Shown: positions 933 through 47,551, counted from the first letter of the stretch. The stretch is 64,000 nt of DNA from an uncultured Chloroflexia bacterium (GCA_963715295.1 CAVQRP010000022.1:24-64023); one strand, 5' to 3'. The notes: a model not told the origin generated them from the sequence alone. Numbers and translations: made by a program.

Positions 933-1093
933 GACATTCCTCCTTCTCACGGCGGGCCGGGTTCGCCAGTGGCTCGGCGCCAGTCAGGCGGCCATGATCG
1001 ACGGGCCGTGCCTCGTAGCCTCCCGCTACTTGTTTGGGCGGTGGAGAGGCCGGTTCGGTTCCCTCTTTGTTGCCTCTTGCTTCCCTGTTCCCA

Positions 1094-5034: not shown

Positions 5035-5191
5035 GTTGTGCCTCCATGTCGGCGGGCCGGGTTCGCCAGTGGCTCAGCACGGTCCTGAGCGGCCATGGTC
5101 GGCGGGCCGTGCGTCGTCGCCTCCCGCTACCTGGATGAGCCAGTGGAAGGCCTGGGTGGTTCCATCTTCGTCGCGTCGCTACTCTGCGTCC

Positions 5192-33248: not shown

Positions 33249-33325
33249 GGTGGCTATAGCTCAATCGGCAGAGCATCGGATTGTGGCTCCGAAGGTTACG
33301 GGTTCAAGCCCCGTTAGCCACCCCA
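33249..33325 (+). tRNA. tRNA-His (anticodon GUG) with G-1 and encoded CCA
   Basis: Manual cloverleaf: G-1; acceptor GTGGCTA/TAGCCAC; D-arm GCTC-AATCGGCA-GAGC; anticodon arm TCGGA-TTGTGGC-TCCGA; variable loop AGGTT; T-arm ACGGG-TTCAAGC-CCCGT; discriminator C; CCA. Confidence 0.95.
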
Positions 33326-33329
33326 CCTC
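33315..33329 (+). repeat. 15-bp direct repeat, left copy (tRNA-His 3' end, TAGCCACCCCACCTC)
   Basis: Exact match to 37400-37414. Confidence 0.85.
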
Positions 33330-33340
33330 CCCTCGTGGAT

Positions 33341-33369
33341 GTGGCCCTCCGTTCTATTCTGAGGGCCAC
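33341..33369 (+). terminator. hairpin immediately after tRNA-His
   Basis: GTGGCCCTC-cgttctattct-GAGGGCCAC forms a 9-bp stem. Confidence 0.5.
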
Positions 33370-33481
33370 TTTCTGGTCGGCCAGGTCGCCCTACTGTCGA
33401 CATCGAGCAACGGGCGCCGGCTCGCGGACCCGACTAGACCGGGACGATTACTGGCGCCTGTCCGGAGCCGCTCCACGACAC

Positions 33482-33510
33482 GAGGCCCGCCCCTCGCGGG
33501 ACGGGCCTCG
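33482..33510. repeat. GC hairpin repeat copy (distant member of the 321-5470 family)
   Basis: GAGGCCCGCCCCTCGCGGGACGGGCCTCG is identical in its core to the 2886-2920 copy. Confidence 0.8.
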
Positions 33511-33908
33511 AACACCAAGCGCACCATGCTTGTGCTCTACAACTGATGGGCGCTCTCATCTGCCAAGAGTTCCCCGCCCCGGATGCGGGCGCCCGACCGG
33601 AGCTGCTCGCTGCGCGGCTACGATGCCGCCGAGGCTGACGCTGGAGCGGCCAGCTGCTCCACGTAGGTGGAGGCGTCGAGGTCGCTGTAGGCGATGACGA
33701 GGCTCGAAGGCTCTGGCGGCGGTTGGACCACCGGGCGCTCAAAGCCGAGAGCGATCGAGGAGCTCGGTTGTCCCTGCCGCCCACCAGTCGACGGCAGGCA
33801 TCGAAGACAAGCCCTGCTCACACTCACCGCAACGAAGATCGAAGAGACCAGGCCCTTCCCCGGCTCAATAGAGTAGATGCCACGCACAGGCATCGAGGGG
33901 GAGCCCTG

Positions 33909-34466
33909 ATGCAGATGGAGATGCGCGATCTGGTCGATGCGGCCAGGCACGGCGACCGGGAGGCCTTCGAGGCTCTGGTCCGTGCCGGCTCGGGGCGTCT
34001 CTACGCCATCGCCTACCGCGTCCTTCGCGACGTGGACCTCGCGAATGACGCCCTCCAGGAGGCGCTCGTGAGGATCTGGGACGACCTGCCCGCGCTGCGC
34101 GACCCCGACCGCTACGACCCCTGGACCTACCGCATCACCTGCCGGGCCTGCTATCGCGTCGCCAGGCGCGAGCGGCGCGCGCCCGTGGCGGCGCTCGTCG
34201 AGCCGCTGCCCCCGGAGTGGTCGGCGTTCGAATCCGAGATCGCCGATCACGATGAGATGGAGCGCGGCTTCCGACGTCTGTCACCAGAGCACCGAGCCGT
34301 GCTCGTCCTCCACTACTACCTGGGGCTGACGATCGGCGAGGTCGCCGAGGCGCTCCGGATCGCGCCGGGGACCGTGGGCTCCCGCCTGCACTACGCCATG
34401 CGCAGTCTGCGGGCGTCGCTGGAGTCGGAAGCACGAAGCACCGAAGCGATGGAGCGATCGCGATGA
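33909..34466 (+). CDS. ECF (sigma-70 family) RNA polymerase sigma factor
   Basis: From the ATG at 33909 in ORF 33723..34466. Region 2: LYAIAYRVLRDVDLANDALQEALVRIW. Region 4: LSPEHRAVLVLHYYLGLTIGEVAEALRIAPGTVGSRLHYAMRSL. Confidence 0.9.
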   Translation: MQMEMRDLVDAARHGDREAFEALVRAGSGRLYAIAYRVLRDVDLANDALQEALVRIWDDLPALRDPDRYDPWTYRITCRACYRVARRERRAPVAALVEPLPPEWSAFESEIADHDEMERGFRRLSPEHRAVLVLHYYLGLTIGEVAEALRIAPGTVGSRLHYAMRSLRASLESEARSTEAMERSR

Positions 34467-35146
34467 CGCGTGAACAGGACCTCCAGCGCCGCCTGGTCGA
34501 CTGGCTGAACGATGGGCCGGTCGCCTCGCCGACCGAGGTCGTCGACGAAGCCATCGAGCGAACAGTGGGACGACGGCAGCATCACCCGCTCTGGGCCTGG
34601 CTGCTCAAGCCACTGGACCGGGTACGTGCCGGCGACGAGACGCGAGTCGTGGTGCTGGTTCTGGCGCTCACGATGCTGGCGGCCCTGGCCATCGGCGTGC
34701 CGCTGGCGGGCGGGACGCGACCGGCGCCCGAGATGGATCCCTCCAGCGTCCTGACGGTCACCGGGGCTACCGAGGTCATCAGCGAGTCGGAGCTCGACGG
34801 TGTCTTCGAGCGGCTCGAGCGTGTCGACGTATCCGATCCCCGGGTGCGTGGCGAGGCACGACAGGTCATGCACGTCGACGCGGCGCCCGGCGCCGGGCTG
34901 CAACGCTCCACCGGAGTGATGCGCCTGGAGAACGAATGGGGCACCTGGGAAGGCACCATCCACGGTGTTCGCTACCCCGACGGTTCGGAGCTCGAATACG
35001 GCTGGCTGAAAGGCCACGAGACCTACGAGGGCTTCAGCTACTTCCATTCCACACTAGGCCATCCCGCTGAAACGGGACGGACGGTCGAGGGGACCATCTG
35101 GCCAGGTGAGCCGCCCCCGGCGCCCGACCCGTCGTTGCTGCCTTGA
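34463..35146 (+). CDS. anti-sigma-like single-pass membrane protein with extracytoplasmic DPR/ENxWGxW/YEG/WPG domain
   Basis: Intact 227-aa ORF with a 4-nt ATGA overlap with the sigma gene. It has a cytoplasmic N-terminus, TM segment VVVLVLALTMLAALAIGVPLAG, and a C-domain homologous to 35216..35806. There is no HxxxCxxC zinc motif. Confidence 0.7.
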   Translation: MTREQDLQRRLVDWLNDGPVASPTEVVDEAIERTVGRRQHHPLWAWLLKPLDRVRAGDETRVVVLVLALTMLAALAIGVPLAGGTRPAPEMDPSSVLTVTGATEVISESELDGVFERLERVDVSDPRVRGEARQVMHVDAAPGAGLQRSTGVMRLENEWGTWEGTIHGVRYPDGSELEYGWLKGHETYEGFSYFHSTLGHPAETGRTVEGTIWPGEPPPAPDPSLLP

Positions 35147-35185
35147 TCCGCACGGGCCCGCGGACACGGCAGGACTACCGAGCCG

Positions 35186-35213
35186 CACGGCGGCGCACGT
35201 CGATGCCGCCGTG
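35186..35213 (+). terminator. 9-bp-stem hairpin between the anti-sigma-like gene and its secreted paralog
   Basis: CACGGCGGC-gcacgtcgat-GCCGCCGTG ends 2-17 nt before the candidate starts of the next gene. It may act as an attenuator or terminator. Confidence 0.4.
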
Positions 35214-35215
35214 AT

Positions 35216-35806
35216 ATGAGGAGCAATGAGATGCGATCAACACGAGCGTCCTTCGGGATCATCCTGACCTTGTTCCTGCTGGCCCTGCCCATCGGTGCGA
35301 CGGGCCAGTCATCCGCTGAGGAGCCAGTGGACGACAGCGAGGCTACCGGGCCCGTGTACGTGACATGGTCCGGTGACTTCGCAGGGTTCCTCGACGTGCC
35401 CGGGGAGCCACAGCAGTTCCCATGGGGCAGCCGGGCGTACCATGGAAACCGCGCCACCCAGACCTCCGAGGATCCGCGCATCAGCGGCGACTTCACCGTC
35501 GTGTACCTTGGTGACGGCCCATGGCCGGCCCAGGCCGGTGAGTCCAGTCGCTTCACATCACTGGTGCGCATCGAGAACGACGACGGCGCCTGGCAGGGAC
35601 CGCTCACTGACGTGTTCCTCCCAGACCAAGTGTGGATCCAGTATGGCTGGCTGACCGGCGAGGGCGCGTACGAGGGCCTGAGCTTCTTCACGAGCTTCCG
35701 CGGCCACACCGATGCCGCGCACCACAACGGCGAGGGCGTGATCTGGCCGGGCGGTCCACCGCCCGAGCCGGACGTGGCACTGCTGGAAGCCGCACTGGAC
35801 CGCTGA
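35216..35806 (+). CDS. secreted protein, paralog of the anti-sigma sensor domain (probable start ATG 35231)
   Basis: AGGAG RBS precedes the ATG at 35231, with signal peptide MRSTRASFGIILTLFLLALPIGATG. SEDPRISGDF...VRIENDDGAWQGPL...YGWLTGEGAYEGLSFF...GEGVIWPGGPPPEPD aligns with the 34463..35146 C-domain. Confidence 0.75.
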   Translation: MRSNEMRSTRASFGIILTLFLLALPIGATGQSSAEEPVDDSEATGPVYVTWSGDFAGFLDVPGEPQQFPWGSRAYHGNRATQTSEDPRISGDFTVVYLGDGPWPAQAGESSRFTSLVRIENDDGAWQGPLTDVFLPDQVWIQYGWLTGEGAYEGLSFFTSFRGHTDAAHHNGEGVIWPGGPPPEPDVALLEAALDR

Positions 35807-36074
35807 CCCTGCCGCCACCGGCGGTCACGAGGTCCATATGGAGCGGGCAACATGGCAACAGAGGCGCCGCGCTGCCCGCTCCTGAGCAGCCCCACCGACG
35901 AGTTCGAGCCCCCGTGGCCCCCACACCATCACCGGATGCTGACGGGGTGACGATGGACTCTTGCACACCGCGCGATCCGACAGGCACGCTGCACGGGAGC
36001 CGAGCGATGACGTTCGGCTCGTCGACGACGGCTGTGGTCGACCGTGTGGGGCGACTGGCACGGAGGAGTAGGCG

Positions 36075-37253
36075 ATGACCTGGGAGCAGGCTGAAGAACG
36101 ATCCACACCGGTGCTGCGCTGTCCGCTGTGCCAGGGCACCGGGTTCGACACGCAACAGGGTCGTCTCGATTCGCGCTGGGGCATCACGAGCCACAAGGTC
36201 GTGATGAAGATCTGCCAGCGCTGTGGGCTCGTGCTCCAGTTCTCTGCCGGGCGGGGCATCTTCGACTTCGCACTAGCGCGCCCAACGGTTGCATCGCCCA
36301 GCGCGACCATCGGCCGCCCGAAGCCATCGCCTCGACAGGCTGGAGCCCCCCGCATCACCGAGATGTTCAGCGCCACCAGGACCGTGGTTGTCAGCGTCAT
36401 CGTGGCGTTGCTCAGTAGCGTCCCATTCACCAGCGCACAGGTCTCTCCGTCGCCCGGAATGCCGGGTGTCCCCGTGTCGCCTTCGCCCAGTGCGGCCCAG
36501 ATCCACTGGGTGACCCCGGTCGTGGACCTTGCCGCCGACGCTTTCTCGGTGGAGGCGAACGGTCTGGAGTTCACGACCGAGGGGGCTCCGCTCGGAGTCG
36601 GCTCCGACCCCGGCGGCCCCGACTACTGGACGCTGGAGGCGGAATGGCTTGAGCAGGGATCGGAACAGCGCCTCTACATGTATTTCGGCTCGGACGGCAC
36701 CGACTGGTGGGTCGACGAGATCCGCACCCGAGACGGCTACGATCCGGCTGAGTGGATCTACGCCTACGGGCCATTCTTGCGAACGCCGTTGGGCGAAGCC
36801 TACGAGGGTGACGTCCGCATCGACCTGCTCGGTGAGGGTCGGCCTGGCGACCGGAGCAACAAGGTAGCCGGCGTTCTTGCGATCGACGGGATGCACCTCG
36901 AGGTGCATCCGTTGATGCTTGCGGACATCGCTGCCATCCCGATCGACGGTGGCAAGGCGGCGACGAAGGACCCGTTCCGCAAGGGTGGACCGCTCCATTG
37001 CAGCGGCATCCTGCTGCTCCCTCCGGCCGAAGCGCACGAGCGCCTCCTCGAGAAGGGCTATCGCGTGTCCTACCGGCTCGATCCCGGAGCGGGAGTGGAC
37101 ATCGACCCGACCGTGCCTCCGGCAGGCGTCATCGAGGACGCTGCTGTCGACAGCTACGGCAACCTCGTCCTGTTCGTCGTCGGGCCCGAGTCGTCCTACC
37201 AGCCAACGGCGAAGCTACCGAGGGACTGCAGGCAAGACAGCGACGAGGGATAG
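36075..37253 (+). CDS. zinc-ribbon, TM segment and extracytoplasmic-domain protein (392 aa)
   Basis: Intact ORF: N-terminal LRCPLCQGTGF...CQRCG, TM segment TRTVVVSVIVALLSSVPFTSA, and a Pro/Ser linker. The alternative reading is two genes, with the second starting at ATG 36363. Confidence 0.65.
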   Translation: MTWEQAEERSTPVLRCPLCQGTGFDTQQGRLDSRWGITSHKVVMKICQRCGLVLQFSAGRGIFDFALARPTVASPSATIGRPKPSPRQAGAPRITEMFSATRTVVVSVIVALLSSVPFTSAQVSPSPGMPGVPVSPSPSAAQIHWVTPVVDLAADAFSVEANGLEFTTEGAPLGVGSDPGGPDYWTLEAEWLEQGSEQRLYMYFGSDGTDWWVDEIRTRDGYDPAEWIYAYGPFLRTPLGEAYEGDVRIDLLGEGRPGDRSNKVAGVLAIDGMHLEVHPLMLADIAAIPIDGGKAATKDPFRKGGPLHCSGILLLPPAEAHERLLEKGYRVSYRLDPGAGVDIDPTVPPAGVIEDAAVDSYGNLVLFVVGPESSYQPTAKLPRDCRQDSDEG

Positions 37254-37830: not shown

Positions 37831-38937
37831 ATGATCGACCGTACCTCGCATACCGACGCCGAGCGCGAAGCGCGGGACAAGCCCGCTGTCGAAGGCCACG
37901 ACGCCCAGCCCCACTACCTGGCGGCGCCAGACCGCTACCAACGCATGGCATTTCGCTACACCGGCAACAGCGGCCTGCAGCTGCCGTCGATCTCGCTCGG
38001 CCTGTGGCACAACTTCGGCGATGACGTCCCATTCGCTCGCCAACGCGCCATCATCCGCAAGGCCTTCGACCTGGGCATCACCCAATTCGACCTGGCCAAC
38101 AACTACGGCCCCCCGTTCGGCTCCGCCGAGGAGAACTTCGGGCGCATCTTCGCCAAGGATCTGAGGCCGTACCGCGACGAGCTGGTCATCACCACCAAGG
38201 CCGGCTGGCACATGTGGCCGGGGCCGTACGGCTGGACCGGCTCGCGCAAGCACGTGCTGGCGTCGCTCGACCAGAGCCTCCAACGCATGGGGCTCGACCA
38301 CGTCGACATCTTCTACTCGCACCGCATCGATCTCGATACACCGCTCGAAGAGACGATGGCTGCCCTGGCCACGGCCGTCCACCAGGGCAAGGCCCGCTAC
38401 GTCGGCATCAGCTCCTACTCGCCGGCGCGCACACGCAAGGCTGCTGCCATCCTGCGCGACCTCGGGACGCCGCTGCTCATCCACCAGCCCAACTACTCCA
38501 TGTTCAACCGCTGGATCGAAGCCGAGCTGCTGGACGTGCTGGCTGCCGAAGGCGCCGGCTGCATCCCCTTCTCCCCCCTTGCGCAGGGCCTGCTCACGAG
38601 CAAGTATCTTGACGGCGTACCGGCGGGCAGCCGGGCCTCGCAAGGCAAATCGCTCTCGGACGACATGCTCAACGAGGCGACCCTCGAGCGCATCGGCGCC
38701 CTGCATGACATCGCCCAGCGCCGCGGCCAGTCGCTGGCGCAGATGGCCATCCTTTGGACCCTGCGCGACGCTCGAGTGTCCTCCGCCCTCATCGGAGCCA
38801 GCTCGCCGGAGCAGCTGGAGGACAGCGTCGGGGCTCTCGCCGGCGCGCCGTTCAGCCAGGAAGAGCTGGCTGAGATCGACCGCTACGCGCAGCCCGGCGA
38901 GGGCGTCGACCTCTGGAACGTCTCCGCGGGGCTGTAG
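37831..38937 (+). CDS. aldo/keto reductase (YghZ/Gpr-like, Kv-beta type)
   Basis: GGAGGGA RBS precedes the ATG at 37831 in ORF 37303..38937. LGLWHNFG, FDLANNYGPPFGSAEENFG, ITTKAG, IFYSHR and RYVGISSY are present. Confidence 0.9.
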   Translation: MIDRTSHTDAEREARDKPAVEGHDAQPHYLAAPDRYQRMAFRYTGNSGLQLPSISLGLWHNFGDDVPFARQRAIIRKAFDLGITQFDLANNYGPPFGSAEENFGRIFAKDLRPYRDELVITTKAGWHMWPGPYGWTGSRKHVLASLDQSLQRMGLDHVDIFYSHRIDLDTPLEETMAALATAVHQGKARYVGISSYSPARTRKAAAILRDLGTPLLIHQPNYSMFNRWIEAELLDVLAAEGAGCIPFSPLAQGLLTSKYLDGVPAGSRASQGKSLSDDMLNEATLERIGALHDIAQRRGQSLAQMAILWTLRDARVSSALIGASSPEQLEDSVGALAGAPFSQEELAEIDRYAQPGEGVDLWNVSAGL

Positions 38938-39762
38938 CTACGGCGCCAGGGTGCCGAAGAACACCTGCCAGGCGAGGATCGTCTTGGCGAACAGGCTCAT
39001 GAACATGTAGGTCTTCTCGCCGACCAGGTAGTCGCGCCAGCGTCCGACCTTGCCGTACTGCAGGATCATGGTGATGGCGAAGACGTTGAAGGCCACGAAG
39101 AGCGAGACGAAGATGACGATGACGAAGCCGGGGATAGGCGCGGCACCCGGCTCGACGGCGGCTGACCACAGCGCGATGCCGATGACGATCCAGGGCACGA
39201 TGCCGGCGATGACACCGAAGATGTAGTGGTTCCATTGCGTCTTCTCGCGCCCCTGGTTGGCTGACTCCATCGACCAACCGAAGAGGTTCATGGCGGCGTT
39301 GATGCCGAAGATGGCCACCAGCGTCCCGATCTCCTGGATCCCGGACAGTGCGGCGATGACCACGATCATGACGCTGGAGCTCAGCGCGTACTCGATCCAG
39401 CGCATGGGCTGGATGTGGTCGCCCAGACGCCGCTCGTACCAGCCCCGCAGTGGCCAGGCCAGCAACGCGTGCGCGATCGCGCTCATGAAGAAGAACAGCG
39501 CCACGGCCGGGCCGATGGGCAGCTCGAAGAGCGGGCTCTGCGCTGGCACCAGCGTGTCGGCAGCCGTGTCGAAGGTGAGGTAGCTGGTAACGACGGGACT
39601 GGTGACGAGGGGATCACGGGCGAACGAGAGGGCCAGGATGACCAGGCCCTGGACGGCATGGAGGCCCGCCAGCACGGCATTCCAGCGGAACAGGCTGTGC
39701 GCCCGATCCTCGGCGATAGGCTCCGCCGTCGCCGGGGCGACAGCTGGCGTGGCTGCGGTCAT
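38938..39762 (-). CDS. heliorhodopsin (7-TM retinal-binding protein, HeR family)
   Basis: Intact 274-aa ORF. FRWNAVLAGLHAVQGLVILAL, MSAIAHALL, MRWIEYALSSSVMIV (counterion Glu position), GIVPWIVIG and YLVGEKTYMFMSLFAKTILAWQVFFGTL (Lys at the Schiff-base position) parallel the prototype heliorhodopsin 48C12 as I remember it. Confidence 0.9.
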   Translation of the reverse strand: MTAATPAVAPATAEPIAEDRAHSLFRWNAVLAGLHAVQGLVILALSFARDPLVTSPVVTSYLTFDTAADTLVPAQSPLFELPIGPAVALFFFMSAIAHALLAWPLRGWYERRLGDHIQPMRWIEYALSSSVMIVVIAALSGIQEIGTLVAIFGINAAMNLFGWSMESANQGREKTQWNHYIFGVIAGIVPWIVIGIALWSAAVEPGAAPIPGFVIVIFVSLFVAFNVFAITMILQYGKVGRWRDYLVGEKTYMFMSLFAKTILAWQVFFGTLAP

Positions 39763-39816
39763 CTGGCCATCCCTTCGTGTTCTCGAGGCTGGTGGGCACT
39801 CCTGCCACCATAGTGC

Positions 39817-39845
39817 ACCCTACGCGGGTGTCTAACCTTTGTCAA
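39817..39845 (-). promoter_or_regulatory. sigma-70-type promoter candidate for the heliorhodopsin gene (TTGACA-17-TAGGGT) with adjacent palindrome TGGTTACAAACCA
   Basis: The minus strand reads TGGTTACAAACCA TTGACA aaggttagacacccgcg TAGGGT in an AT-richer patch, about 50 nt upstream of the ATG at 39762. Confidence 0.45.
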
Positions 39846-39874
39846 TGGTTTGTAACCAGCGTGCGTTCGGACCG

Positions 39875-40906
39875 TCAGTTGGTGAGCGTGACCTTGCGGA
39901 TGGAGCGAGGCTGCTCCGGATCCCGGCCCCGTGCCAACGTGGTGTGCATGGCGTGCAGTTGCCCCGGCACGATCGAGACGATCGGCATGAGCCACTCGGG
40001 CAGGCGGGGCAGCGCGAATGACCATGTCCCCCGCGCGCAGACCGCCTTATCGTCAGAAGCGATGAGCAGGCGTGCCTCCAGCTCGCCTCCGAGGCGCTCG
40101 ATGACCTCGGCCATGTCACCCTCCGTGGCACCGCTCGGCGCGACGCAGAAGGTGGGGAAACCTGCTTCGATCAGGGCCAGCGGGCCATGGATGAAGTCCG
40201 CGGAGGAGTAGGGGTCGGCCAGGACGTAGGCCAACTCCTTGAGCTTGAGCGACCACTCGCGGGCCGTGGCGTAGTGGTAGCCCCGACCGAGCACGACGCA
40301 ACGATCGAGTCCCACCTGGTCGGCTGCGATGCGCCTCGCCTCCCCTTCCTGGTCCAGGACCACAGCCAGGGCCTGCGGCACCTTCGCCAGATCGGCCTGC
40401 GCGGCCGTGTCCGCCAATCCGGCACTGAGCATGGCCAGCACCAGCAACGTGGCGGTATAGGTCTTGGTGGCCGCCACGGCGCGTTCAGGACCGGCCCGCA
40501 GGGAGATGTGGTGCTGTGCGGCCTCGGCCATGTCCGAGCCAAGCGTATTGGTGATGGCCAGCGTGATCGCGCCCTGGGCTCGTGCCGAGCGGATGACGCC
40601 CACCACATCGGGCGACGCACCGGACTGGCTGATGCCGACCACCAGGGCGCGGCTGTAGTCAGGTTCAGCGCCATACAGGGAGTGCACACTCGGCGTGGCC
40701 AGCCCGACGTAGATACCGGCCAGCACACCCATGGCGTACTGCGCGTAGATGGCGGCATGGTCGGAGGTTCCCCGCGCCGCGATGACCACGTGGCTGGGGT
40801 CGGCGCCGCGAATGGACTCACAGACGGCCGCGATCTCGGGCCCGGCCTCGCGCAACAGACGCGCGGCGACCTCGGGCTGCTCTCGGATCTCGTCGATCAG
40901 GGCCAC
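39875..40906 (-). CDS. double-SIS-domain sugar isomerase/deaminase (GlmS C-terminal / AgaS / NagB-II-like)
   Basis: From the GTG at 40906 (VALIDEIREQPEV) in ORF 39875..41041. VIAARGTSDHAA, GISQSGASPD and AVAATKTYT are present. Confidence 0.85.
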   Translation of the reverse strand: MALIDEIREQPEVAARLLREAGPEIAAVCESIRGADPSHVVIAARGTSDHAAIYAQYAMGVLAGIYVGLATPSVHSLYGAEPDYSRALVVGISQSGASPDVVGVIRSARAQGAITLAITNTLGSDMAEAAQHHISLRAGPERAVAATKTYTATLLVLAMLSAGLADTAAQADLAKVPQALAVVLDQEGEARRIAADQVGLDRCVVLGRGYHYATAREWSLKLKELAYVLADPYSSADFIHGPLALIEAGFPTFCVAPSGATEGDMAEVIERLGGELEARLLIASDDKAVCARGTWSFALPRLPEWLMPIVSIVPGQLHAMHTTLARGRDPEQPRSIRKVTLTN

Positions 40907-42535
40907 TGGACCACCTCCATGCCGTGCCCACGGGGATAGAGCCCGGGGATGTCCACGGGCAGCCGGCCACCGATGGGCGCGTGGCCGAAGAGCGCATCGG
41001 CGACGGCGCCGACGCTGGACGGTACGACCGAGTAGGAGCATAGATGCGTCGCCGATCGCGGGTAGTCTGCGAGGTCATAGGGTGTGCGCATCGAGACCGA
41101 CACGGTCGGCGTGCCGGTCCCCAGGATCGACTCCACCAGTCGCGCCTGCGAGGCCTGCACGCTCGTGGCGAGCGTGACCACGATGACGTAGCCAGCACGC
41201 GACGCGGCCTCCCGAGCACCCGCGATCTCGTCGTCGCTGGGCTCGGCTGAGACGCGCACGTCGACGACCTCGCGATGGTGGCGACGCACGGCAGCGGCCA
41301 GCGCCAGCGGCTCATCCGCAGACGAGTCGGCCGGTGTCAGGTCGCGTGGCTGCGGCGTGATGACGACGACCGGGTCGGCGGCGGCAGGCCGAAGCGGCAA
41401 CAGACCGCGCGTCATCTCGCACCAGCGTGAGCGCTTGCCGCGCGGCTCGTCGGGCAAGGTCCCGGTGCGCCTCGCTGCGCACGACCTCGCGCGGCGGCCA
41501 GCCGAAGCCACCCAACCAGCGCCGCAGGTCGAGGATGCGCCCGACCGACGATCGCACCGACTCGGCTGCCACCAGCCCTCGCAGGGCCGCCTGCCGCAGT
41601 CCATCCTCGAGGCGCTGCTGGGCGGCCCGGTCGGGTGTCATCAGGAGCAGGTCGACGTCCGCCCGCAGCGCCATGATGCTGTCGATGACACCTCCGGTGC
41701 CCTGGGCCACGGCCTTCATGTCCATGGCATCGGTGAGCGAGACACCGCTGAAGCCAAGGCGTTCGCGCAACAGGCCGTGCATCACCATCCGCGACACGGT
41801 CGCCGGCAGGGCCCGGTCGCCGGTGAGCGCCGGCAGGGCCACGTGGCCGGACATCACCATCGATGCGCCCGCCTCGAAGGCTGCCCGGAACGGCACCAGC
41901 TCACGTGCCTCGAGGGCCTCCACGTCGAGGTCGATGGCCGCCAGCGCGAAATGGGGGTCGACGTCGACCGCGCCGAAGCCGGGGAAGTGCTTGGGCGTGG
42001 CGACCACGCCGCCACCTTGCAGCCCACGCACCATCGCCGCGGCGTGGCGGGCGACCGTGCGCGGATCGGCCCCGAAGGCGCGCGTCCCGAGACTGATGTT
42101 GCCCGGCTCCACGGCAACGTCACAGACGGGTGCGTAGTTCACCGTGATGCCGAGTGCTCGCAGCTCGGCCGCGGTGGCACGCCCCACGGCCTCGGTGAGC
42201 GCGACATCATCGGCCGCGCCGAGCGCCATGGCCCCTGGGAAACGGGTCGTCTCATGGCCCAGGCCGACCAGCTGACCACCTTCCTGGTCGGCACCGATGA
42301 GCAACGGAAGCTCGCCCGGCGCCGTTTCGTGCAGCTGCTCTGTCAGTGCGGCGAGGGCCGTTGCTCCCGCCGCGTTGGCATGCAGGAAGAGCGTGACGCC
42401 GTGTGCGTGGCCGGCCGCGATGCGGGCGAGCAGCCATGCGGGCGGCTGGGAGCCTTCGAAGGCCGGCAGCAGCTGGCCCAGCACGGCGTCGGCAGGCAAG
42501 CGCTCCACGCTCGCGGGCGAGGCGCGCTCAGGCAC
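40897..42535 (-). CDS. glycoside hydrolase family 3 (beta-N-acetylhexosaminidase/NagZ-like with C-terminal domain); one frame switch near 41400
   Basis: ORF 41312..42535 carries GADQEGGQLV, KHFPGFG and SLTDAMDM. The C-domain is in ORF 40897..41604. Confidence 0.85.
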
Positions 42536-42571: not shown

Positions 42572-43465
42572 CTAGCCCTTGACCGAGCCGGCGAGGATGC
42601 CGCGGATGAAGTACCGCTGCAGTGCCAGGAACACCAGTAGCGGCAAGACCATCGTGACGAAGGCACCGGCCGTAAGCAGGTGCCAGGCCTGCCCGCGGTT
42701 TCCGATGAGCTGATTGAGCTTCACCGTGGCCACCGCCACGTCGTCCTGTGGCCCCAGGAACACCAGCGCCACCAGCAGGTCGTTCCACACCCACAGGAAC
42801 TGGAAGATGGCAAACGCCGCCAGGGCCGGCACCGAGAGGGGCAGGACGATGCGAACGAACATCTGGAAGTGCGTGGCTCCGTCGATGCTGGCGGTCTCGA
42901 AGAGGTCTTCCGGCAGCTGGCTGATGAAGTTGTAGAGCAGGAAGACGGCGAGCGGCAGGCCGAACCCTGTGTGCGCCAGCCAGATGCCCAGGAATGTCCC
43001 AGCAATGCCCAATTCGGAGTAGATCTGGAGGACCGGGATCAAGGCCATCTGAAGGGGCACGACGAGCAGGCCCACGACGATGATGAACAGTGGGATGCGG
43101 AATGGGAAACGCATCCACGCGAAGGCATAGGCGGCGAACGCGGCTACCGTGATCGGGATGATCGTGGCCGGGATGGCCACGATCAACGAGTTGACGAATG
43201 CGCCTGCGAAATTCTCCGAGGTGATGACGTTGGCGTAGTTGTCAAGCGTCCACTGGGACATGTCCCAGAACGAGAACAGTGCGGTCCACCAGCCCGAGCT
43301 ACTGATCTCCTGTGGATCGCGGACCGAGGTGATAAGCAGGCCGAGCGTTGGGATGAACCAGACAACACAGATGGCGATGACGGCGAACCGGATGGGCGCA
43401 CGCGCCCAGAAGGTGCTTCGACGCTTGGCGTGCGAGATGTCGCCGACGCCCGGCTGGGCGGTCAT
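42572..43465 (-). CDS. carbohydrate ABC transporter permease
   Basis: Intact 297-aa ORF, polytopic, with an EAA-like loop (ETASIDGATHFQMFVRIVLPL). Confidence 0.9.
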   Translation of the reverse strand: MTAQPGVGDISHAKRRSTFWARAPIRFAVIAICVVWFIPTLGLLITSVRDPQEISSSGWWTALFSFWDMSQWTLDNYANVITSENFAGAFVNSLIVAIPATIIPITVAAFAAYAFAWMRFPFRIPLFIIVVGLLVVPLQMALIPVLQIYSELGIAGTFLGIWLAHTGFGLPLAVFLLYNFISQLPEDLFETASIDGATHFQMFVRIVLPLSVPALAAFAIFQFLWVWNDLLVALVFLGPQDDVAVATVKLNQLIGNRGQAWHLLTAGAFVTMVLPLLVFLALQRYFIRGILAGSVKG

Positions 43466-44661
43466 CGGATCCCCTGCCTTCGCATCTGGCGCACGTTCAG
43501 CACCATCAGCGGCAGAACCGCGACGAACAAGACGACCGCGAGGACGGCGCCGCGTCCGTCGTCGAAGAACATGAACATCTGACGGAACATCTGGTTGGCC
43601 ACGACATCGGTCTGGAAGTTGCCGCCGGTCGTGGCGAAGACGATGTCGAAGATCTTCAGCACGAAGATGGCGATGGTGATGGTCACCGTCATCAGCGAAC
43701 CGCGGATCATGGGCACGATGATCTGGAAGAACTTCTGGCGTTCACTCGCTCCGTCTAGCGAGGCAGCCTCGGTGATCTCGACGGGCACGCCCTTGATGGC
43801 CGCCGACAGGACGACCATGGCAAACCCTGTCTGTAGCCAGACCAGGATGATGATCAGCAGGAAGGTGTTCAAAGGCGCCTGCTGCAGCCAGGCCACCGGC
43901 TCCCCGCCCAAGGTGGTCCAGATCGCGTTGAGAAGCCCGATCTGATCGCCGCTGCCAGGGCGCCACGCGTACACGAAACCCCAGATCACGGACGCGCCAA
44001 CCAGTGATATGGCGAGCGGCAGGAAGATGAAGGTCTTGGCAATGGACTCGTGCCTGACCCGGTCCACCAGCCACGCTATGACCAGGCCCAGACCAACCGC
44101 GCCGGCAGTCCCGACCACAAGCCAGATGATGTTGTTGATGTAGATGCGATGGTTCTTGGCATCGGTCAAACCCCAGACCCAGTCGTCGAAGCCTGCCCCC
44201 TGGCTGACCTCGATCGAGGGCGGCACAAGCCTGATGTCGATGCCGACGCTAAGGAACATCGTGGAGACTGCCGGCCATACGAGGAAGACCGCGAGGATGA
44301 GCAGCGCAGGCCCTACGAAGACCCACGGGACCAGCCGAGCGGTCCAGGGCGGTCCCAGCCGCTCGACGATGACGTTGAGTCCCGTGTAGATGAGCCAGAT
44401 GCCGCCCACGCCGATGAGGAGCGCGACGGCCATGACGATGATCTTGGCCATGAATTGATCGCCGCCACCGCGACGCAGAGCCTCAGCCTGCTGCGTATCG
44501 CCGAGCAGGTCGTAGATCCAGGCAGAGACGTTGGCTGCGCCCTGCTGGTCCGCAAGGAAGATCAGGCCGGCTACGATCGCGATCAGACCGAGCAGCGCAC
44601 CCAGCGGCAAGAGCAGTCCGCGCCAGCCGCTCGCTTGCTCGGCGGGCGCCATCCCAGTCAT
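43462..44661 (-). CDS. sugar ABC transporter permease with extended N-terminal TM region
   Basis: Intact 399-aa ORF with EAA-like loop EAASLDGASERQKFFQIIVPM and a 4-nt overlap with the next permease. Confidence 0.9.
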   Translation of the reverse strand: MTGMAPAEQASGWRGLLLPLGALLGLIAIVAGLIFLADQQGAANVSAWIYDLLGDTQQAEALRRGGGDQFMAKIIVMAVALLIGVGGIWLIYTGLNVIVERLGPPWTARLVPWVFVGPALLILAVFLVWPAVSTMFLSVGIDIRLVPPSIEVSQGAGFDDWVWGLTDAKNHRIYINNIIWLVVGTAGAVGLGLVIAWLVDRVRHESIAKTFIFLPLAISLVGASVIWGFVYAWRPGSGDQIGLLNAIWTTLGGEPVAWLQQAPLNTFLLIIILVWLQTGFAMVVLSAAIKGVPVEITEAASLDGASERQKFFQIIVPMIRGSLMTVTITIAIFVLKIFDIVFATTGGNFQTDVVANQMFRQMFMFFDDGRGAVLAVVLFVAVLPLMVLNVRQMRRQGIR

Positions 44662-44756
44662 GGTCCGATCTCCCTCATCTGGCGTGTCCCTCCCAGAGAG
44701 TGGCCCAGTGCGGGGCGCGGCTCAGGCCGCCGCCCCGCACCGAGGAACTGCTAGAG

Positions 44757-46124
44757 CTAGCTCGGCCAGCTGTCGTCGATGGCCTGGAGCACCGCCTCGG
44801 TGTTCTCGCCGTTGGCAGCGATCCAATCGACCATGCCGGTCCAGAACGAACCCGCACCGACGGCCGCCGGCATCAGGTCAGAGGCGTCGAAGCGGAAGTC
44901 CGTAGCGCTCGCCAGGAGACCGGCCGCGACCTCGGACTTGTAGTTGCCCTCGTACCACTCGCCGGGCACGTTGGTGTTGGCCGCGATGGCGCTGCCGAGC
45001 TTCACCCAGCCTTCGATGCCTTCAGGCATCGAGAGGAACTGCGCGAAGGCACGTGCCTCGGGCGTGTCGTTGAACATGACCAGGCCGTCACCGGCACCGA
45101 GCGCCGGGTTCTGCGCCGGATCGACCGGGGGCAGCGGGAAGATGCCGATGTCCTCACCGATCACGTACTGGCTGGGCTCGCCGCTGGCACGCTGATCCGG
45201 GAAGAAGTCCGGGCCGTACCAGAACGGGATGATGTGCATCCAGCAGCCGGGCGTGAGCGTGTCGCCATCGAACATGGGGTCCATCGGGGTGCGCTGCTCG
45301 AGCGCAGTGATGGCCGTGTTGCCGCCGAGGACGTAGTCCGGCGTGAAATAGATCTGTGCGACCAGCTCCAGGGCTGCCTTCACCTCGTCGGAGTTGAAGG
45401 GCAGCTCGTGGCTGACCCACTTGTCATAGGCCTCGACCCCGGCCGTGCGCAGCATGGCCGCCTCGACGAGGTCGGTCGCCTGCCAGCCGGTGGCCGTTCC
45501 GGCCTCTATGCCCACGCAGAACGGGTTGGAGCCGGCCGCCACGATCTGGTCAGCCAAGGCGAGCAGCTCATCCCACGTCTGCGGGATGGCGTAGCCGGCT
45601 TCTTCGAAGGCCTTGATGGGGTACCAGACAACGCCCTTGACGTCGACCTTGTAGGGGATGGCGTACTGCTCACCATCGACCTGGTAGAGGCTGTTGGTCG
45701 CAGACTGCCCGTCCAGCGAACCTTCGGGCATGAAGGTGTTGACGTCGACAGCGGTGCCTTCGGTGCCGTATTGGTTGATCGATGCCGGCTGGCCCAGCAT
45801 GGCCAAGTCGGGCGGGTTGCCGCCCTGCACGCGCGAGCGCAGCACGGTCTCGTGGCTGGAGCCGATCTGGTCGTGGGCGATGGTGATCCCGGTCGCATCC
45901 GCGAACGGCTGGTAGGCCGTCTTGAAGTTTTCGCCCTCGCCGCCGGTCCATTGTGTCTGGATGACAACGCGTGACCCGGTGAAGTCGCCCGCGAGCGCCT
46001 GATCGAGCTCCGGAAGTCCGGTCTCCATCATCTCGTCCTGGGCTACGACGCCGACGCTACTGAATGTGAGGGCCATCGTTGCCAGCGCGGTGCCGGCGAT
46101 GGTCCATCGCTTGGTTCGGTGCAT
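44757..46124 (-). CDS. extracellular sugar-binding protein of the ABC transporter
   Basis: Intact 455-aa ORF with AAGGAGGAGG RBS and signal peptide MHRTKRWTIAGTALATMALTFSSVGVVAQ. Confidence 0.9.
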   Translation of the reverse strand: MHRTKRWTIAGTALATMALTFSSVGVVAQDEMMETGLPELDQALAGDFTGSRVVIQTQWTGGEGENFKTAYQPFADATGITIAHDQIGSSHETVLRSRVQGGNPPDLAMLGQPASINQYGTEGTAVDVNTFMPEGSLDGQSATNSLYQVDGEQYAIPYKVDVKGVVWYPIKAFEEAGYAIPQTWDELLALADQIVAAGSNPFCVGIEAGTATGWQATDLVEAAMLRTAGVEAYDKWVSHELPFNSDEVKAALELVAQIYFTPDYVLGGNTAITALEQRTPMDPMFDGDTLTPGCWMHIIPFWYGPDFFPDQRASGEPSQYVIGEDIGIFPLPPVDPAQNPALGAGDGLVMFNDTPEARAFAQFLSMPEGIEGWVKLGSAIAANTNVPGEWYEGNYKSEVAAGLLASATDFRFDASDLMPAAVGAGSFWTGMVDWIAANGENTEAVLQAIDDSWPS

Positions 46125-46324
46125 TGCACCTCCTCCTTGATCCCGCTCGAACGTCGAGCGAGATGGGTTGATGAAACGGCGCGAAGCGCTTCGGTGCGCC
46201 CGGCCGGTCGTTCAGGCGGTCGCTGCCCTCCTCCCTTCGCGTCCTCTCTGTGGCAGGGCGCGATCGGCCTCGTTACAGGGAATGCTAGTCCTGATAGCCC
46301 ATCGAATCCGGGCCGTTGCGCACG

Positions 46325-47551
46325 TCATGCGGCGAGTGCGAGCCCAAGCTCGGATGTCATCAGCATGGCCGCCGCACCCAGTGCCACAGCGTCGTCACCG
46401 GTACGGCCGAAATGGATGTGGCTGCGCTCGATGAGCAGCGACAAGGCGGAGCGCTGAGCCTCCGCACGAACGGCGTCCAGCCAGGGTTGGCCGAACTCGG
46501 TCATGGGTCCGATGAGCACGACGTCACGCGCCCCCAGCGTCCCGATCATGGCCGCCAGCACGCGGCCCACCGGTGGCCCTGCCTCGAGAACGACCTGGCG
46601 TGCCAGCACGTCCCCTTCCCGGAAGGCCGCCAACAGTGCCTCGTGCGTGACCGGCGCCCCAGCGAGGCACGACTCCGGTCGCGTGAGCACGAGATGGGAC
46701 GCGCGCTCGAGGACAGCCCGGAGGCTGGCGACCGTCTCCAGGCAGCCGGTGCCACCGCAGCGACAGCGGATGTCCTCATCCGTCACGCGCGTGTGCCCGA
46801 TCTCGCCGGCACCCGAGTCATCGCCGGCGTAGACACGGCCGCCGATGACGATGCCGGCGCCGATACCGACACCGACCTTCACCACTACCATCGAAGACGA
46901 GGTGTCATGGTGGCCGAAGGCCCACTCGGCCATGGCAGATGCCTGCGAGTCGTTGACCACCACGGTCGGCAGTCCCGTCAGCCGCGCCAGCCGCTCTCCC
47001 ACCGGGATGTCGTGCCAGTCCAGACCCACGGCCCAGCGTACCCGGCCGGCCGGCTGGTCGATGAGCCCCGGCGTGCCGATGCCGACACCGACGAGCGGCC
47101 GCTCAGCGAGGTCAGCCAGTGCTATCACCAAGCTCTCCAACTCCTCCAGGGCGGCCTCGCCGTCGCGTCCATGGAGGTCGCGCGATTCACGCGCGCAGAC
47201 CTCACCATGGAGGTTGACCACGGCGCCGCTCAGTCGGTCGCGGTCCACGTCGACGCCCACCAATTGACGGGCGTCCGGCAGGACACGCAGCAGGATGGGG
47301 GCCTTGCCTCCGGTCGAGGGCCCGGTGCCGGCCTCGACCACCAGGTCGTCCAGGATCAGGCCCTCCACGAGATCCGACACGGTGGTACGGGTGAGGCCCG
47401 TGGCGCGCGCGACGTCTGCACGGCTCAGGGGACCGAGCTCGTAGATAGTGCGCAGCACCAGCCGCACGTTGGCGCGCCGGGTCTGACCATGGGTCGCCTT
47501 GGCAAGCGTGGCGGTGGGCACGAACCTCACTTTGTCAGCGGACTGGACCAA
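46325..47551 (-). CDS. ROK family transcriptional regulator (TTG start in ORF track; true start may be downstream)
   Basis: Intact 408-aa ORF. N-terminal wHTH LSRADVARATGLTRTTVSDLV, ROK motif GAGEIGH, and zinc motif CRCGGTGCLE. Confidence 0.9.
   Translation of the reverse strand: MVQSADKVRFVPTATLAKATHGQTRRANVRLVLRTIYELGPLSRADVARATGLTRTTVSDLVEGLILDDLVVEAGTGPSTGGKAPILLRVLPDARQLVGVDVDRDRLSGAVVNLHGEVCARESRDLHGRDGEAALEELESLVIALADLAERPLVGVGIGTPGLIDQPAGRVRWAVGLDWHDIPVGERLARLTGLPTVVVNDSQASAMAEWAFGHHDTSSSMVVVKVGVGIGAGIVIGGRVYAGDDSGAGEIGHTRVTDEDIRCRCGGTGCLETVASLRAVLERASHLVLTRPESCLAGAPVTHEALLAAFREGDVLARQVVLEAGPPVGRVLAAMIGTLGARDVVLIGPMTEFGQPWLDAVRAEAQRSALSLLIERSHIHFGRTGDDAVALGAAAMLMTSELGLALAA

What the first reader, a model, noticed from the sequence alone, without database searches (positions are those of the whole stretch)
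38938..39762. Heliorhodopsin gene at the tail of a ROK / sugar-ABC / GH3 / SIS cluster
What the sequence shows:
- The 274-aa 7-TM ORF carries the diagnostic heliorhodopsin strings as I recall them from prototype 48C12.
- These are the two conserved His contexts (GLHAVQ, AIAHALL), RWIEYALSSSVMIV with the counterion Glu, GIVPWI, and SLFAKTILAWQ with the Schiff-base Lys.
- The gene lies on the same strand as the six-gene ROK-SBP-permease-permease-GH3-SIS array (47551 down to 39875), 113 bp downstream of it.
- It appears to have its own promoter.
- It abuts an aldo-keto reductase stop-to-stop with zero spacer (TAG|CTA at 38935-38940).
- No carotenoid or retinal synthesis gene (crt, blh) is visible anywhere in the 64 kb.

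Why it matters: the physiological role of heliorhodopsins is unsettled, and reported partners differ between lineages. A conserved link to amino-sugar uptake or catabolism would be new.
Basis: partly seen in the sequence, partly recalled or inferred. Interest (0 to 1): 0.72.

Follow-up and report, generated by a model that had tools for sequence, protein, structure and literature searches.

The report
Heliorhodopsin gene with light-repressor operator
The gene is a genuine heliorhodopsin, but it sits beside the sugar genes by evolutionary accident: it carries its own promoter with a binding site typical of the vitamin-B12 light-sensing repressor CarH, so it is probably switched on by light.

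Summary
Window 38938-39762(-) encodes a 274-aa heliorhodopsin: Pfam E=1.7e-89, Schiff-base Lys260, counterion Glu124, His35/His98, N-terminus inside. It lies 112 nt after a ROK-SBP-permease-permease-GH3-SIS array and abuts an aldo-keto reductase stop-to-stop.

The proposed sugar link is weak.
- The arrangement occurs in 21 of 80 related genome loci, and their heliorhodopsins form one clade.
- An unrelated gene separates SIS and the heliorhodopsin in 3 of the 21.
- One collinear relative (L092) has SIS followed directly by the reductase, with no heliorhodopsin.
- Two outgroup GH3-SIS clusters also lack it.

The gene has its own conserved promoter (TTGACA-17-TAGGGT). Three 11-bp direct repeats (TnnACA) overlap the -35 box, which is the published CarH/LitR operator design. 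This site is present in 19 of 21 syntenic loci at a fixed distance from the start codon.

In the sister clade and other Chloroflexota, heliorhodopsin genes sit next to carH itself, together with photolyase, carotenoid-desaturase-like and lipid-modifying genes.

Best reading: a light-induced, CarH-controlled heliorhodopsin unit that was inserted once between two unrelated genes. No carH gene was found in the window, and binding is untested.

The parts
38938..39762 (-). Heliorhodopsin coding sequence, 274 aa: Lys260 Schiff base, Glu124 counterion, His35/His98, 7 TM, N-terminus cytoplasmic
39829..39856 (-). CarH/LitR-type operator made of three tandem 11-bp direct repeats: GTTACAAACCA (39856-39846, degenerate because T is G), TTGACAAAGGT (39845-39835, contains the -35 box) and TAGACA (39834-39829)
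   Evidence: It is the only such site in the 64 kb (0.03 expected). It is conserved in 19 of 21 syntenic loci, ending 56-84 nt (mostly 56-70) before the start codon, while the flanking columns carry no information. The consensus nnnnTnnACAn, with one repeat holding the -35 box, is from PMC9304148.
39817..39845 (-). Sigma-70-type promoter: -35 TTGACA (39845-39840), 17-nt spacer, -10 TAGGGT (39822-39817). The predicted transcription start is near 39810.
   Evidence: Read. A TAnnnT hexamer lies 17-18 nt after TTGACA in nearly all syntenic loci. The scan tool reports an overlapping alternative, TAGACA-16-TATGGT at 39834-39807.
39770..39776 (-). Shine-Dalgarno-like GAAGGGA, 7 nt before the ATG
   Evidence: Read. 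Relatives have GGAGG or GGGGA at the same place.
39875..40906 (-). SIS-domain enzyme resembling NagB-II or the GlmS isomerase half. It is the upstream neighbour and not part of the heliorhodopsin unit.
   Evidence: The likely start is GTG 40906, overlapping the GH3 stop.
40897..42535 (-). GH3 glycosidase resembling NagZ, frameshifted in the window near residue 377
42572..47551 (-). ROK regulator (46325-47551), a conserved leader of about 200 nt (46125-46324), SBP (44757-46124) and two ABC permeases (43462-44652 and 42572-43465)
37831..38937 (+). Convergent aldo-keto reductase of the L-glyceraldehyde-3-phosphate reductase family, with its stop codon touching the heliorhodopsin stop codon
   Evidence: 485 bits against a cut-off of 448

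Best explanation
Shown: the ORF is a bona fide heliorhodopsin. It is a retinal-binding, seven-helix photoreceptor with its N-terminus inside the cell.

Inferred: it is an independent, light-induced transcription unit and not the last gene of the amino-sugar operon. Its promoter (TTGACA-17-TAGGGT) is overlaid by three tandem 11-bp direct repeats of the TnnACA type, the operator design of the coenzyme-B12 photoreceptor/repressor CarH (LitR).

Proposed mechanism, inferred from the established CarH model: in the dark an AdoCbl-bound CarH tetramer sits on the repeats and blocks the -35 box. Light breaks the Co-C bond, the tetramer falls apart, and the heliorhodopsin gene is transcribed. The protein then takes up retinal on Lys260, from a source that is unknown. 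It acts, as other bacterial heliorhodopsins are thought to, as a slow-cycling light sensor that works through partner proteins. The partner is unknown; the gene company in relatives points to light-stress and membrane-lipid functions.

The position next to the sugar cluster is best explained by history. A roughly 1-kb promoter-plus-gene module left the ancestral carH light cluster and landed once between SIS and the reductase. It was then inherited vertically and later lost at least once.
For: Identity:
- Pfam, NCBIfam and PDB matches with aligned Lys, Glu and His residues.
- K+R count of 12 on the N-terminal/odd-loop side against 0 on the other side.

Own promoter and operator:
- The triple TnnACA site is unique in the 64 kb.
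- Sites with 2 mismatches or fewer occur in 19 of 21 syntenic loci, ending 56-84 nt (mostly 56-70) before the start codon. Only 41 other such sites occur in 1.3 Mb read on both strands, which predicts about 0.004 per 270-nt upstream window.
- The information profile shows conservation exactly at T..ACA x3 plus TTGACA and near zero elsewhere, including inside the -35/-10 spacer.
- The motif stays directly upstream of the heliorhodopsin when another gene is inserted after SIS (L002, L012, L024).
- The published CarH operator is tandem 11-bp nnnnTnnACAn repeats, one including -35 TTGACA (PMC9304148).

Link to carH in relatives:
- MerR + B12-binding_2 + B12-binding proteins lie within 10 kb of the heliorhodopsin in 10 of the 59 non-syntenic loci.
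- L064 and L080 have the order crtI-like, 3xDR operator, HeR, carH, MFS, photolyase.
- The nearest outgroup heliorhodopsins (L020-22, L083; 69-77% identity) sit inside the cluster carH / SDR / HeR / SRPBCC / amine oxidase / DUF1365 / CMAS.
- A weight matrix built from the HeR-upstream sites finds its best other hits in carH-adjacent promoters.
- The Limnocylindria protein matches T. thermophilus CarH (5c8d, 3whp) at E about 1e-36, with the Wx9EH and RHExG motifs.

Against an operon role:
- The syntenic heliorhodopsins are monophyletic.
- L092 is collinear but has only 43 nt between SIS and the reductase and no heliorhodopsin.
- The outgroup GH3-SIS clusters lack it.
Against: - No carH gene is present in the window or within 10 kb in any of the 21 syntenic loci. 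I could not search the rest of those genomes.
- The window's first repeat is degenerate (GttACA).
- Repeats with an 11-bp period around a -35 box are also used by OmpR/PhoB-type response regulators.
- No terminator was detected between SIS and the heliorhodopsin, so read-through from the sugar operon is possible.
- The trees are simple neighbour-joining trees without support values.
- Nothing about binding, light response or retinal has been measured.
Confidence: 0.6

Rival explanations
1. One reading: the heliorhodopsin is a functional part of the amino-sugar system. It would be co-expressed with it and confer light control on the ABC importer, the GH3 enzyme or the SIS (GlcN-6-P deaminase-like) enzyme through protein-protein contact.
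For: - Same strand with a 112-nt gap and no detectable terminator.
- The adjacency is kept in 21 species-level genomes whose neighbouring proteins are only 52-90% identical.
- There is precedent: heliorhodopsins modulate an ABC exporter (PMC11109279), and glutamine synthetase is among their frequent operon neighbours.
- The SIS enzyme also handles ammonia or glutamine chemistry. That thematic parallel is my own inference.
Against: - A conserved own promoter and operator.
- Unrelated genes inserted between SIS and the heliorhodopsin in L002, L012 and L024.
- A single evolutionary origin.
- None of the 59 other loci has ROK, SBP, GH3 or SIS orthologues nearby.
- L092 keeps the whole sugar cluster and the reductase without the heliorhodopsin.
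- L088 and L090 also lack it.
- The whole block from GAF-GGDEF to the reductase is equally conserved, so the adjacency carries no signal specific to the heliorhodopsin.
Confidence: 0.08
2. The conserved upstream block is a promoter controlled by a different regulator, for example an OmpR/PhoB-type response regulator that binds direct repeats. Under this reading the resemblance to a CarH operator is coincidental.
For: - Response regulators also use repeats with a 10-11-bp period near the -35 box (established knowledge).
- No carH gene lies in the window or the syntenic loci.
- GAF-GGDEF signalling genes lie nearby, and heliorhodopsin neighbourhoods are enriched in two-component genes (Bulzu preprint).
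Against: - The conserved letters are exactly T-n-n-A-C-A in each 11-mer, with -35 TTGACA in the middle repeat, as published for CarH.
- The same motif type recurs in promoters beside carH in related genomes.
- It also recurs upstream of HeR-carH operons (L064, L080).
- One repeat lies inside the -35/-10 spacer, which suits a repressor better than an activator.
Confidence: 0.2
3. The gene is an ordinary, constitutively expressed heliorhodopsin. The upstream conservation would simply reflect a strong promoter in closely related genomes.
For: The 21 loci are relatives, and a good TTGACA/TAnnnT promoter would be conserved anyway.
Against: - The rest of the intergenic region cannot be aligned, whereas the positions 11 bp to either side of the -35 box are conserved, including spacer positions that a plain promoter does not constrain.
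- The carH-adjacent arrangements in other lineages are independent of this one.
Confidence: 0.1

Closest known systems
Heliorhodopsins TaHeR (PDB 6is6) and 48C12 (PDB 6su3)
   Same: Full-length homology (E=7.5e-62 and 1.1e-47). The Schiff-base Lys, counterion Glu and two conserved His residues all align. Seven helices with the N-terminus inside.
   Different: The host is a soil Chloroflexota of the Limnocylindrales. The N-terminus is about 20 residues longer. No biochemical data exist for this protein.
CarH/LitR operators of Thermus thermophilus, Bacillus megaterium and Myxococcales carotenoid promoters (PMC9304148)
   Same: Three tandem 11-bp direct repeats nnnnTnnACAn, one carrying the -35 TTGACA.
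   Different: The controlled gene is a heliorhodopsin rather than carotenoid genes or carH itself. The regulator gene is not adjacent in this clade, and binding has not been shown. I found no paper in the searchable library that links heliorhodopsin with CarH or LitR.
Heliorhodopsin operon-neighbour groups: MerR-family regulator, photolyase, alpha/beta hydrolase, DUF2177, ABC transporter (PMC11109279); cobalamin-binding proteins and photolyase as neighbours (Chazan preprint 10.1101/2021.02.16.431466)
   Same: Relatives here show the same company: carH (MerR plus B12 domains), photolyase, DUF2177, AhpC-like and alpha/beta hydrolase genes.
   Different: Those studies treat neighbours as possible interaction partners or as statistical associations. 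Here the MerR/B12 neighbour is read as the transcriptional regulator of the heliorhodopsin gene, with a matching operator. The ABC transporter in the published case is a multidrug exporter encoded upstream of the heliorhodopsin in a predicted single-promoter operon, not a CUT1-type sugar importer.
GlcNAc/chitobiose utilisation clusters: NagC-type ROK regulator, NgcEFG-like ABC importer, NagZ, NagB-II
   Same: The best NCBIfam matches of the six neighbours point to this theme.
   Different: All of those matches fall below the curated equivalog cut-offs, and no ATPase gene is in the cluster. The substrate is therefore not established. The transporter genes differ between relatives (SBP 34-84% identity).

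Membership tests
Heliorhodopsin (Pfam PF18761, NCBIfam NF038020) | Profile-HMM match above the curated cut-off across the whole domain | tested here: met
   PF18761: 299.8 bits against 26.7, profile positions 1-242 of 242. NF038020: 299.1 bits against 100.
Heliorhodopsin (Pfam PF18761, NCBIfam NF038020) | Retinal Schiff-base Lys in helix 7 (K241 of 48C12) and counterion Glu in helix 3 (E107) | tested here: met
   Lys260 and Glu124 align to K241 and E107 in the printed alignment. Residues were checked.
Heliorhodopsin (Pfam PF18761, NCBIfam NF038020) | Conserved His residues of helices 1 and 2 (H23 and H80 of 48C12) | tested here: met
   His35 and His98 align to them.
Heliorhodopsin (Pfam PF18761, NCBIfam NF038020) | Seven helices with inverted topology (N-terminus cytoplasmic) | tested here: met
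   Hydropathy plus the positive-inside count give K+R = 12 on the N-terminus and loops 2-3, 4-5 and 6-7, against 0 on the other side. This is a sequence inference; no structure was predicted.
Heliorhodopsin (Pfam PF18761, NCBIfam NF038020) | Binds all-trans retinal, has a slow photocycle and does not pump ions | not testable with these tools
   Requires expression and spectroscopy.
CarH/LitR-regulated promoter | Three or more tandem 11-bp direct repeats nnnnTnnACAn | tested here: met
   The window site 39829-39856 has 1 mismatch. Of the 21 syntenic loci, 9 have perfect sites and 19 have sites with 2 mismatches or fewer. The consensus is from PMC9304148.
CarH/LitR-regulated promoter | The operator overlaps the -35 (or -10) promoter element | tested here: met
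   The middle repeat is TTGACA, with a TAnnnT hexamer 17-18 nt downstream.
CarH/LitR-regulated promoter | A carH/litR gene (MerR HTH plus B12-binding domains) in the same genome | tested here: inconclusive
   None in the 64-kb window or within 10 kb in the 21 syntenic loci. It is present beside the heliorhodopsin in 10 other loci and in four Limnocylindria-type loci, L081-L084. The rest of the window's genome could not be searched. Sample accessions do not identify bins.
CarH/LitR-regulated promoter | AdoCbl-dependent binding in the dark, released by light | not testable with these tools
   Needs EMSA or footprinting, or light/dark expression data.
Member of the ROK-ABC-GH3-SIS operon | Co-directional with a short gap and no internal promoter | tested here: not met
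   It is co-directional, but the gap is 72-219 nt in 17 of the 21 syntenic loci and 323-1302 nt in the other four, never overlapping the upstream gene. A conserved promoter lies in the gap.
Member of the ROK-ABC-GH3-SIS operon | Adjacency conserved beyond close relatives and in most orthologous clusters | tested here: not met
   Absent from 59 of 80 heliorhodopsin loci. The orthologous clusters L092, L090 and L088 have no heliorhodopsin.
GlcNAc/chitobiose utilisation cluster | Equivalog-level matches to NagC, NgcE, NagZ and NagB-II | tested here: inconclusive
   These are the best hits but fall below the curated cut-offs: 182 against 650, 51 against 400, 152 against 207, and 218 against 430.

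The most novel reading that the evidence does not exclude
The heliorhodopsin gives the amino-sugar system a light input. CarH would switch the gene on in the light. The membrane-embedded heliorhodopsin would then bind the CUT1 permeases or the NagB-II-like SIS enzyme encoded just upstream, tuning amino-sugar import or ammonia release to daylight. That would be a two-photoreceptor cascade ending in nutrient uptake. The evidence makes this unlikely but does not exclude it for this one clade.
Probability: 0.07. Interest if true: 0.7.

Novelty: new member of a known kind. Interest (0 to 1): 0.42.

Why it matters
What heliorhodopsins do, and how their genes are controlled, remain open questions. 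[quoted passage not shown]

If the operator reading is right, one photoreceptor (B12-CarH) switches on another (retinal-heliorhodopsin) in Chloroflexota. That places heliorhodopsin in the light-stress regulon alongside photolyase, carotenoid-type desaturases and fatty-acid-modifying enzymes. This fits earlier hints of roles in DNA repair, oxidative stress and lipid remodelling.

It also yields a simple, testable prediction: light- and B12-dependent transcription from a defined 28-bp site.

The case is also a caution. A gene adjacency kept in 21 species can still be a single historical insertion.

Tried and rejected
1. A palindrome TGGTTACAAACCA upstream of the heliorhodopsin as a possible ROK operator. 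There is only one exact copy in the window. The half-sites are not conserved in relatives, and the conserved letters follow the 11-bp direct-repeat register instead. Rejected.

2. A shared ROK operator between the SBP leader and the heliorhodopsin promoter. The ROK-SBP intergenic region is conserved, but by eye I saw no resemblance to the heliorhodopsin upstream block; no formal motif comparison was run.

3. A regex search for CarH (Wx9EH plus [DE]xHxxG) missed proteins with SRHELG. It was replaced by tblastn and Pfam.

4. Tying carH contigs to the metagenome-assembled genomes of the syntenic clade through ENA accessions. The ERZ numbers denote samples, not bins, and no carH contig has the length of any heliorhodopsin or SIS contig. 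No answer.

5. Rfam search of the SBP leader: no family.

6. A simple GC3-threshold gene caller picked antisense ORFs. It was replaced by a codon-usage score.

7. Structure prediction was not run. The full-length match to solved heliorhodopsins made it unnecessary.

Full report
OBSERVATION

The ORF at 38938-39762 on the minus strand encodes 274 residues.
- It matches the Pfam heliorhodopsin model over its whole length (PF18761, E=1.7e-89, 299.8 bits against a cut-off of 26.7).
- It passes the NCBIfam equivalog model NF038020 (299 bits against 100).
- It matches the solved heliorhodopsins TaHeR (6is6, E=7.5e-62, residues 27-274 against 21-258) and 48C12 (6su3, E=1.1e-47).

Counting along the printed alignment to 48C12 puts Glu124 on the counterion E107, Lys260 on the Schiff-base K241, and His35 and His98 on H23 and H80. 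A hydropathy and positive-inside count gives 12 Lys+Arg on the N-terminus and alternate loops and none on the other side. The N-terminus is therefore predicted to be cytoplasmic, as in heliorhodopsins.

- ROK regulator with an N-terminal winged helix (46325-47551)
- solute-binding protein (44757-46124)
- two BPD_transp_1 permeases (43462-44652 and 42572-43465)
- GH3 glycosidase
- SIS enzyme (39875-40906)
- a convergent aldo-keto reductase whose stop codon touches the heliorhodopsin stop codon

The SIS-to-heliorhodopsin spacer is 112 nt. The GH3 gene is broken by a frameshift in the window; in relatives it is one ORF of about 545 aa.

NCBIfam's best matches point to amino sugars: NagC/Mlc, NgcE, NagZ and NagB-II/GlmS isomerase half. 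All fall below the curated cut-offs. The reductase does pass as the L-glyceraldehyde-3-phosphate reductase family.

Pfam scans of about 50 window ORFs found no carotenoid, blh or carH gene.

ORGANISM

The closest loci are soil metagenome-assembled genomes labelled Chloroflexia, Chloroflexota or Candidatus Limnocylindrales.

IS THE SUGAR-CLUSTER ADJACENCY MEANINGFUL?

I fetched 80 heliorhodopsin loci from species-representative genomes, with 10-kb flanks. I then searched them with the window's proteins.

The whole block GAF-GGDEF / ROK / SBP / permeases / GH3 / SIS / heliorhodopsin / convergent reductase is kept in 21 loci: L001-L019, L024 and L030. Their heliorhodopsins are 75-94% identical to the window's. 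None of the other 59 loci has any of these neighbours. That includes loci whose heliorhodopsin is 70-77% identical.

- In a neighbour-joining tree the sugar-cluster heliorhodopsins form one clade. The adjacency therefore arose once.
- The junction is not tight. The SIS-to-heliorhodopsin gap is 72-219 nt in 17 of the 21 loci and 323 nt in L010, never overlapping.
- In L002, L012 and L024 a further gene lies between SIS and the heliorhodopsin. It is an alpha/beta hydrolase in two of them and a secreted protein in the third.
- In L010 and L017 a gene lies between the heliorhodopsin and the reductase.

I also looked from the sugar cluster's side, searching with the SIS protein and inspecting three of its more distant hits (73-78% identity).
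- L092 is collinear with the window from ROK through to BioY and the ABC ATPase: SIS 77%, reductase 83%. SIS and the reductase are separated by only 43 nt, and there is no heliorhodopsin.
- L090 (GAF-GGDEF, GH3, SIS) and L088 (permeases, GH3, SIS, MFS) also lack it.
- In a SIS+GH3 tree, L088 and L090 are outgroups. L092 is nested inside the heliorhodopsin-bearing clade.

The simplest history is one gain and at least one loss.

WHAT TRAVELS WITH THE GENE

I aligned the 200 nt upstream of the heliorhodopsin start in the 21 loci and the window. One conserved block stands out in otherwise unalignable sequence. In the window it reads GTTACAAACCA TTGACAAAGGT TAGACA at 39856-39829.

Anchored on this block, the conserved columns are T..ACAaAC..TTGACA.A...T..ACA, and the information content falls to near zero on both sides. 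A TAnnnT hexamer follows TTGACA after 17-18 nt in nearly all loci. In the window it is TAGGGT at 39822-39817.

This is a sigma-70-type promoter with two extra conserved TnnACA elements. One lies exactly 11 bp upstream of the -35 hexamer. The other lies 11 bp downstream, inside the spacer.

That is the published design of CarH/LitR operators: tandem 11-bp direct repeats 5'-nnnnTnnACAn-3', three in Thermus thermophilus, with one repeat including -35 TTGACA (PMC9304148).

The supporting statistics:
- The triple pattern with 1 mismatch or fewer occurs once in the 64-kb window, against 0.03 expected.
- With 2 mismatches or fewer it occurs in 19 of 21 syntenic loci, ending 56-84 nt (mostly 56-70) before the start codon, and 9 of those sites are perfect.
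- Only 41 other such sites occur in 1.3 Mb read on both strands. That is about 0.004 expected per upstream window, by my arithmetic.
- The block stays directly upstream of the heliorhodopsin in the loci where another gene follows SIS.

INDEPENDENT LINK TO CarH

No carH is in the window or the syntenic loci. It is, however, encoded close to the heliorhodopsin in 10 of the other 59 loci.

- Pfam confirms MerR_1 + B12-binding_2 + B12-binding for the four I tested.
- L064 and L080 have the order crtI-like desaturase, three perfect or near-perfect repeats, heliorhodopsin, carH, MFS, photolyase.
- L050 has carH, five tandem repeats, then fasciclin, AhpC-like, DUF2177 and heliorhodopsin.
- The nearest outgroup heliorhodopsins (L020-L022, 75-77% identity) and L083 lie inside a cluster of CMAS-like methyltransferase, DUF1365, amine oxidase, SRPBCC, then (divergently) heliorhodopsin, SDR and carH.
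- Two further Limnocylindria-type carH loci, L081 and L084, have the same cluster without a heliorhodopsin. That is the layout expected if the gene had moved away. I could not show that they belong to the window's clade.

Repeats of the same type lie in the promoters beside carH in L081-L084. A weight matrix built from the 21 heliorhodopsin-upstream sites finds its best other hits in carH-adjacent promoters or upstream of other heliorhodopsins. The L084 protein matches T. thermophilus CarH (5c8d, 3whp) at about 1e-36, with the Wx9EH and RHExG signatures.

MECHANISM

Shown: a complete heliorhodopsin with its catalytic residues, its own promoter, and an operator-like repeat array.

Inferred from the established CarH model: AdoCbl-CarH tetramers repress in the dark by covering the -35 box. 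Light photolyses the cofactor, the tetramer dissociates, and the heliorhodopsin is made.

Unknown: the retinal source and the partner protein. The gene company in relatives (photolyase, peroxiredoxin-like, DUF2177, fatty-acid-modifying enzymes) fits earlier proposals of roles in photodamage responses and lipid remodelling.

Read-through from SIS cannot be excluded, because no terminator was detected.

COMPARISON WITH THE LITERATURE

Earlier neighbourhood studies list MerR-family regulators, photolyase, alpha/beta hydrolase, DUF2177 and ABC transporters (PMC11109279). They also list cobalamin-binding proteins (Chazan preprint) among heliorhodopsin neighbours.

I found no paper in the searchable library that connects heliorhodopsin with CarH, LitR or a B12 operator. 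The heliorhodopsin itself is a new member of a known family. The operator reading is a new, untested regulatory inference.

VERDICT

The sugar interpretation is mostly not supported. The locus is best described as a CarH-type, light-controlled heliorhodopsin module inserted between unrelated genes. Interest is moderate.

Noticed in passing
window 46125-46324 (-), between the ROK stop and the SBP start: This leader of about 200 nt is strongly conserved in 17 syntenic loci. It has an invariant AGGGAGGAGGGCAGC core and several hairpins. One hairpin just before the ribosome-binding site (ctcgcccga...tcgggcgag) keeps its pairing through changes on both sides in some sequences. There is no Rfam match. 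It may be an undescribed cis-regulatory RNA of the sugar ABC operon.
   Followed up: partly
window 946-1032 (-) and 5046-5133 (-): Two matches to the c-di-GMP-II-GAG riboswitch (41.5 and 53.8 bits; gathering score 40). The same window encodes a GAF-GGDEF diguanylate cyclase pair at 47603-49604.
   Followed up: no
window 40897-42535 (-); also window 1-24000: The GH3 gene is split by a frameshift near residue 377, although relatives have one ORF of about 545 aa. Many ORFs in the first 24 kb are fragments of larger families: GSDH profile positions 119-330, the C-terminal half of an MFS transporter, and only the N-terminal part of the dynamin GTPase domain. This suggests indel errors in a long-read assembly, or pseudogenes.
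   Followed up: partly
L092 7054-7102: This is an 'empty site'. The relative is fully collinear and has SIS followed after 43 nt by the convergent reductase, with no heliorhodopsin. The spacer contains an inverted repeat (gagccggctccgg / ccggctccgggc; read by eye). In the SIS+GH3 tree this locus sits next to L011, the only syntenic locus without the operator.
   Followed up: yes
L081-L084; L020-L022: Limnocylindria-type genomes carry a carH light cluster: fasciclin, carH, SDR, SRPBCC, amine oxidase, DUF1365 and a CMAS-like methyltransferase (photolyase follows in L081). TnnACA repeats lie in its promoters. Some versions contain a heliorhodopsin between SDR and SRPBCC and some do not.
   Followed up: partly
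L002 9097-9774, L012 9035-9928, L017 4336-5145: The same alpha/beta-hydrolase family appears directly upstream of the heliorhodopsin in L002 and L012 and directly downstream in L017. Alpha/beta hydrolases are a published frequent heliorhodopsin neighbour.
   Followed up: no
L012/L049, L041/L045, L021/L037: Several of these genomes carry a second, distant heliorhodopsin paralogue (about 50-53% identity). In two cases it is on the same contig.
   Followed up: no
window 33250-37253: The stretch between the reductase and the next gene shared with L092 is variable. In the window it holds a tRNA (33250-33322), an ECF sigma factor (33909-34466), a possible anti-sigma factor (34463-35146) and a 380-aa protein (36111-37253). 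That protein has no Pfam match and no homologue in any syntenic locus.
   Followed up: no
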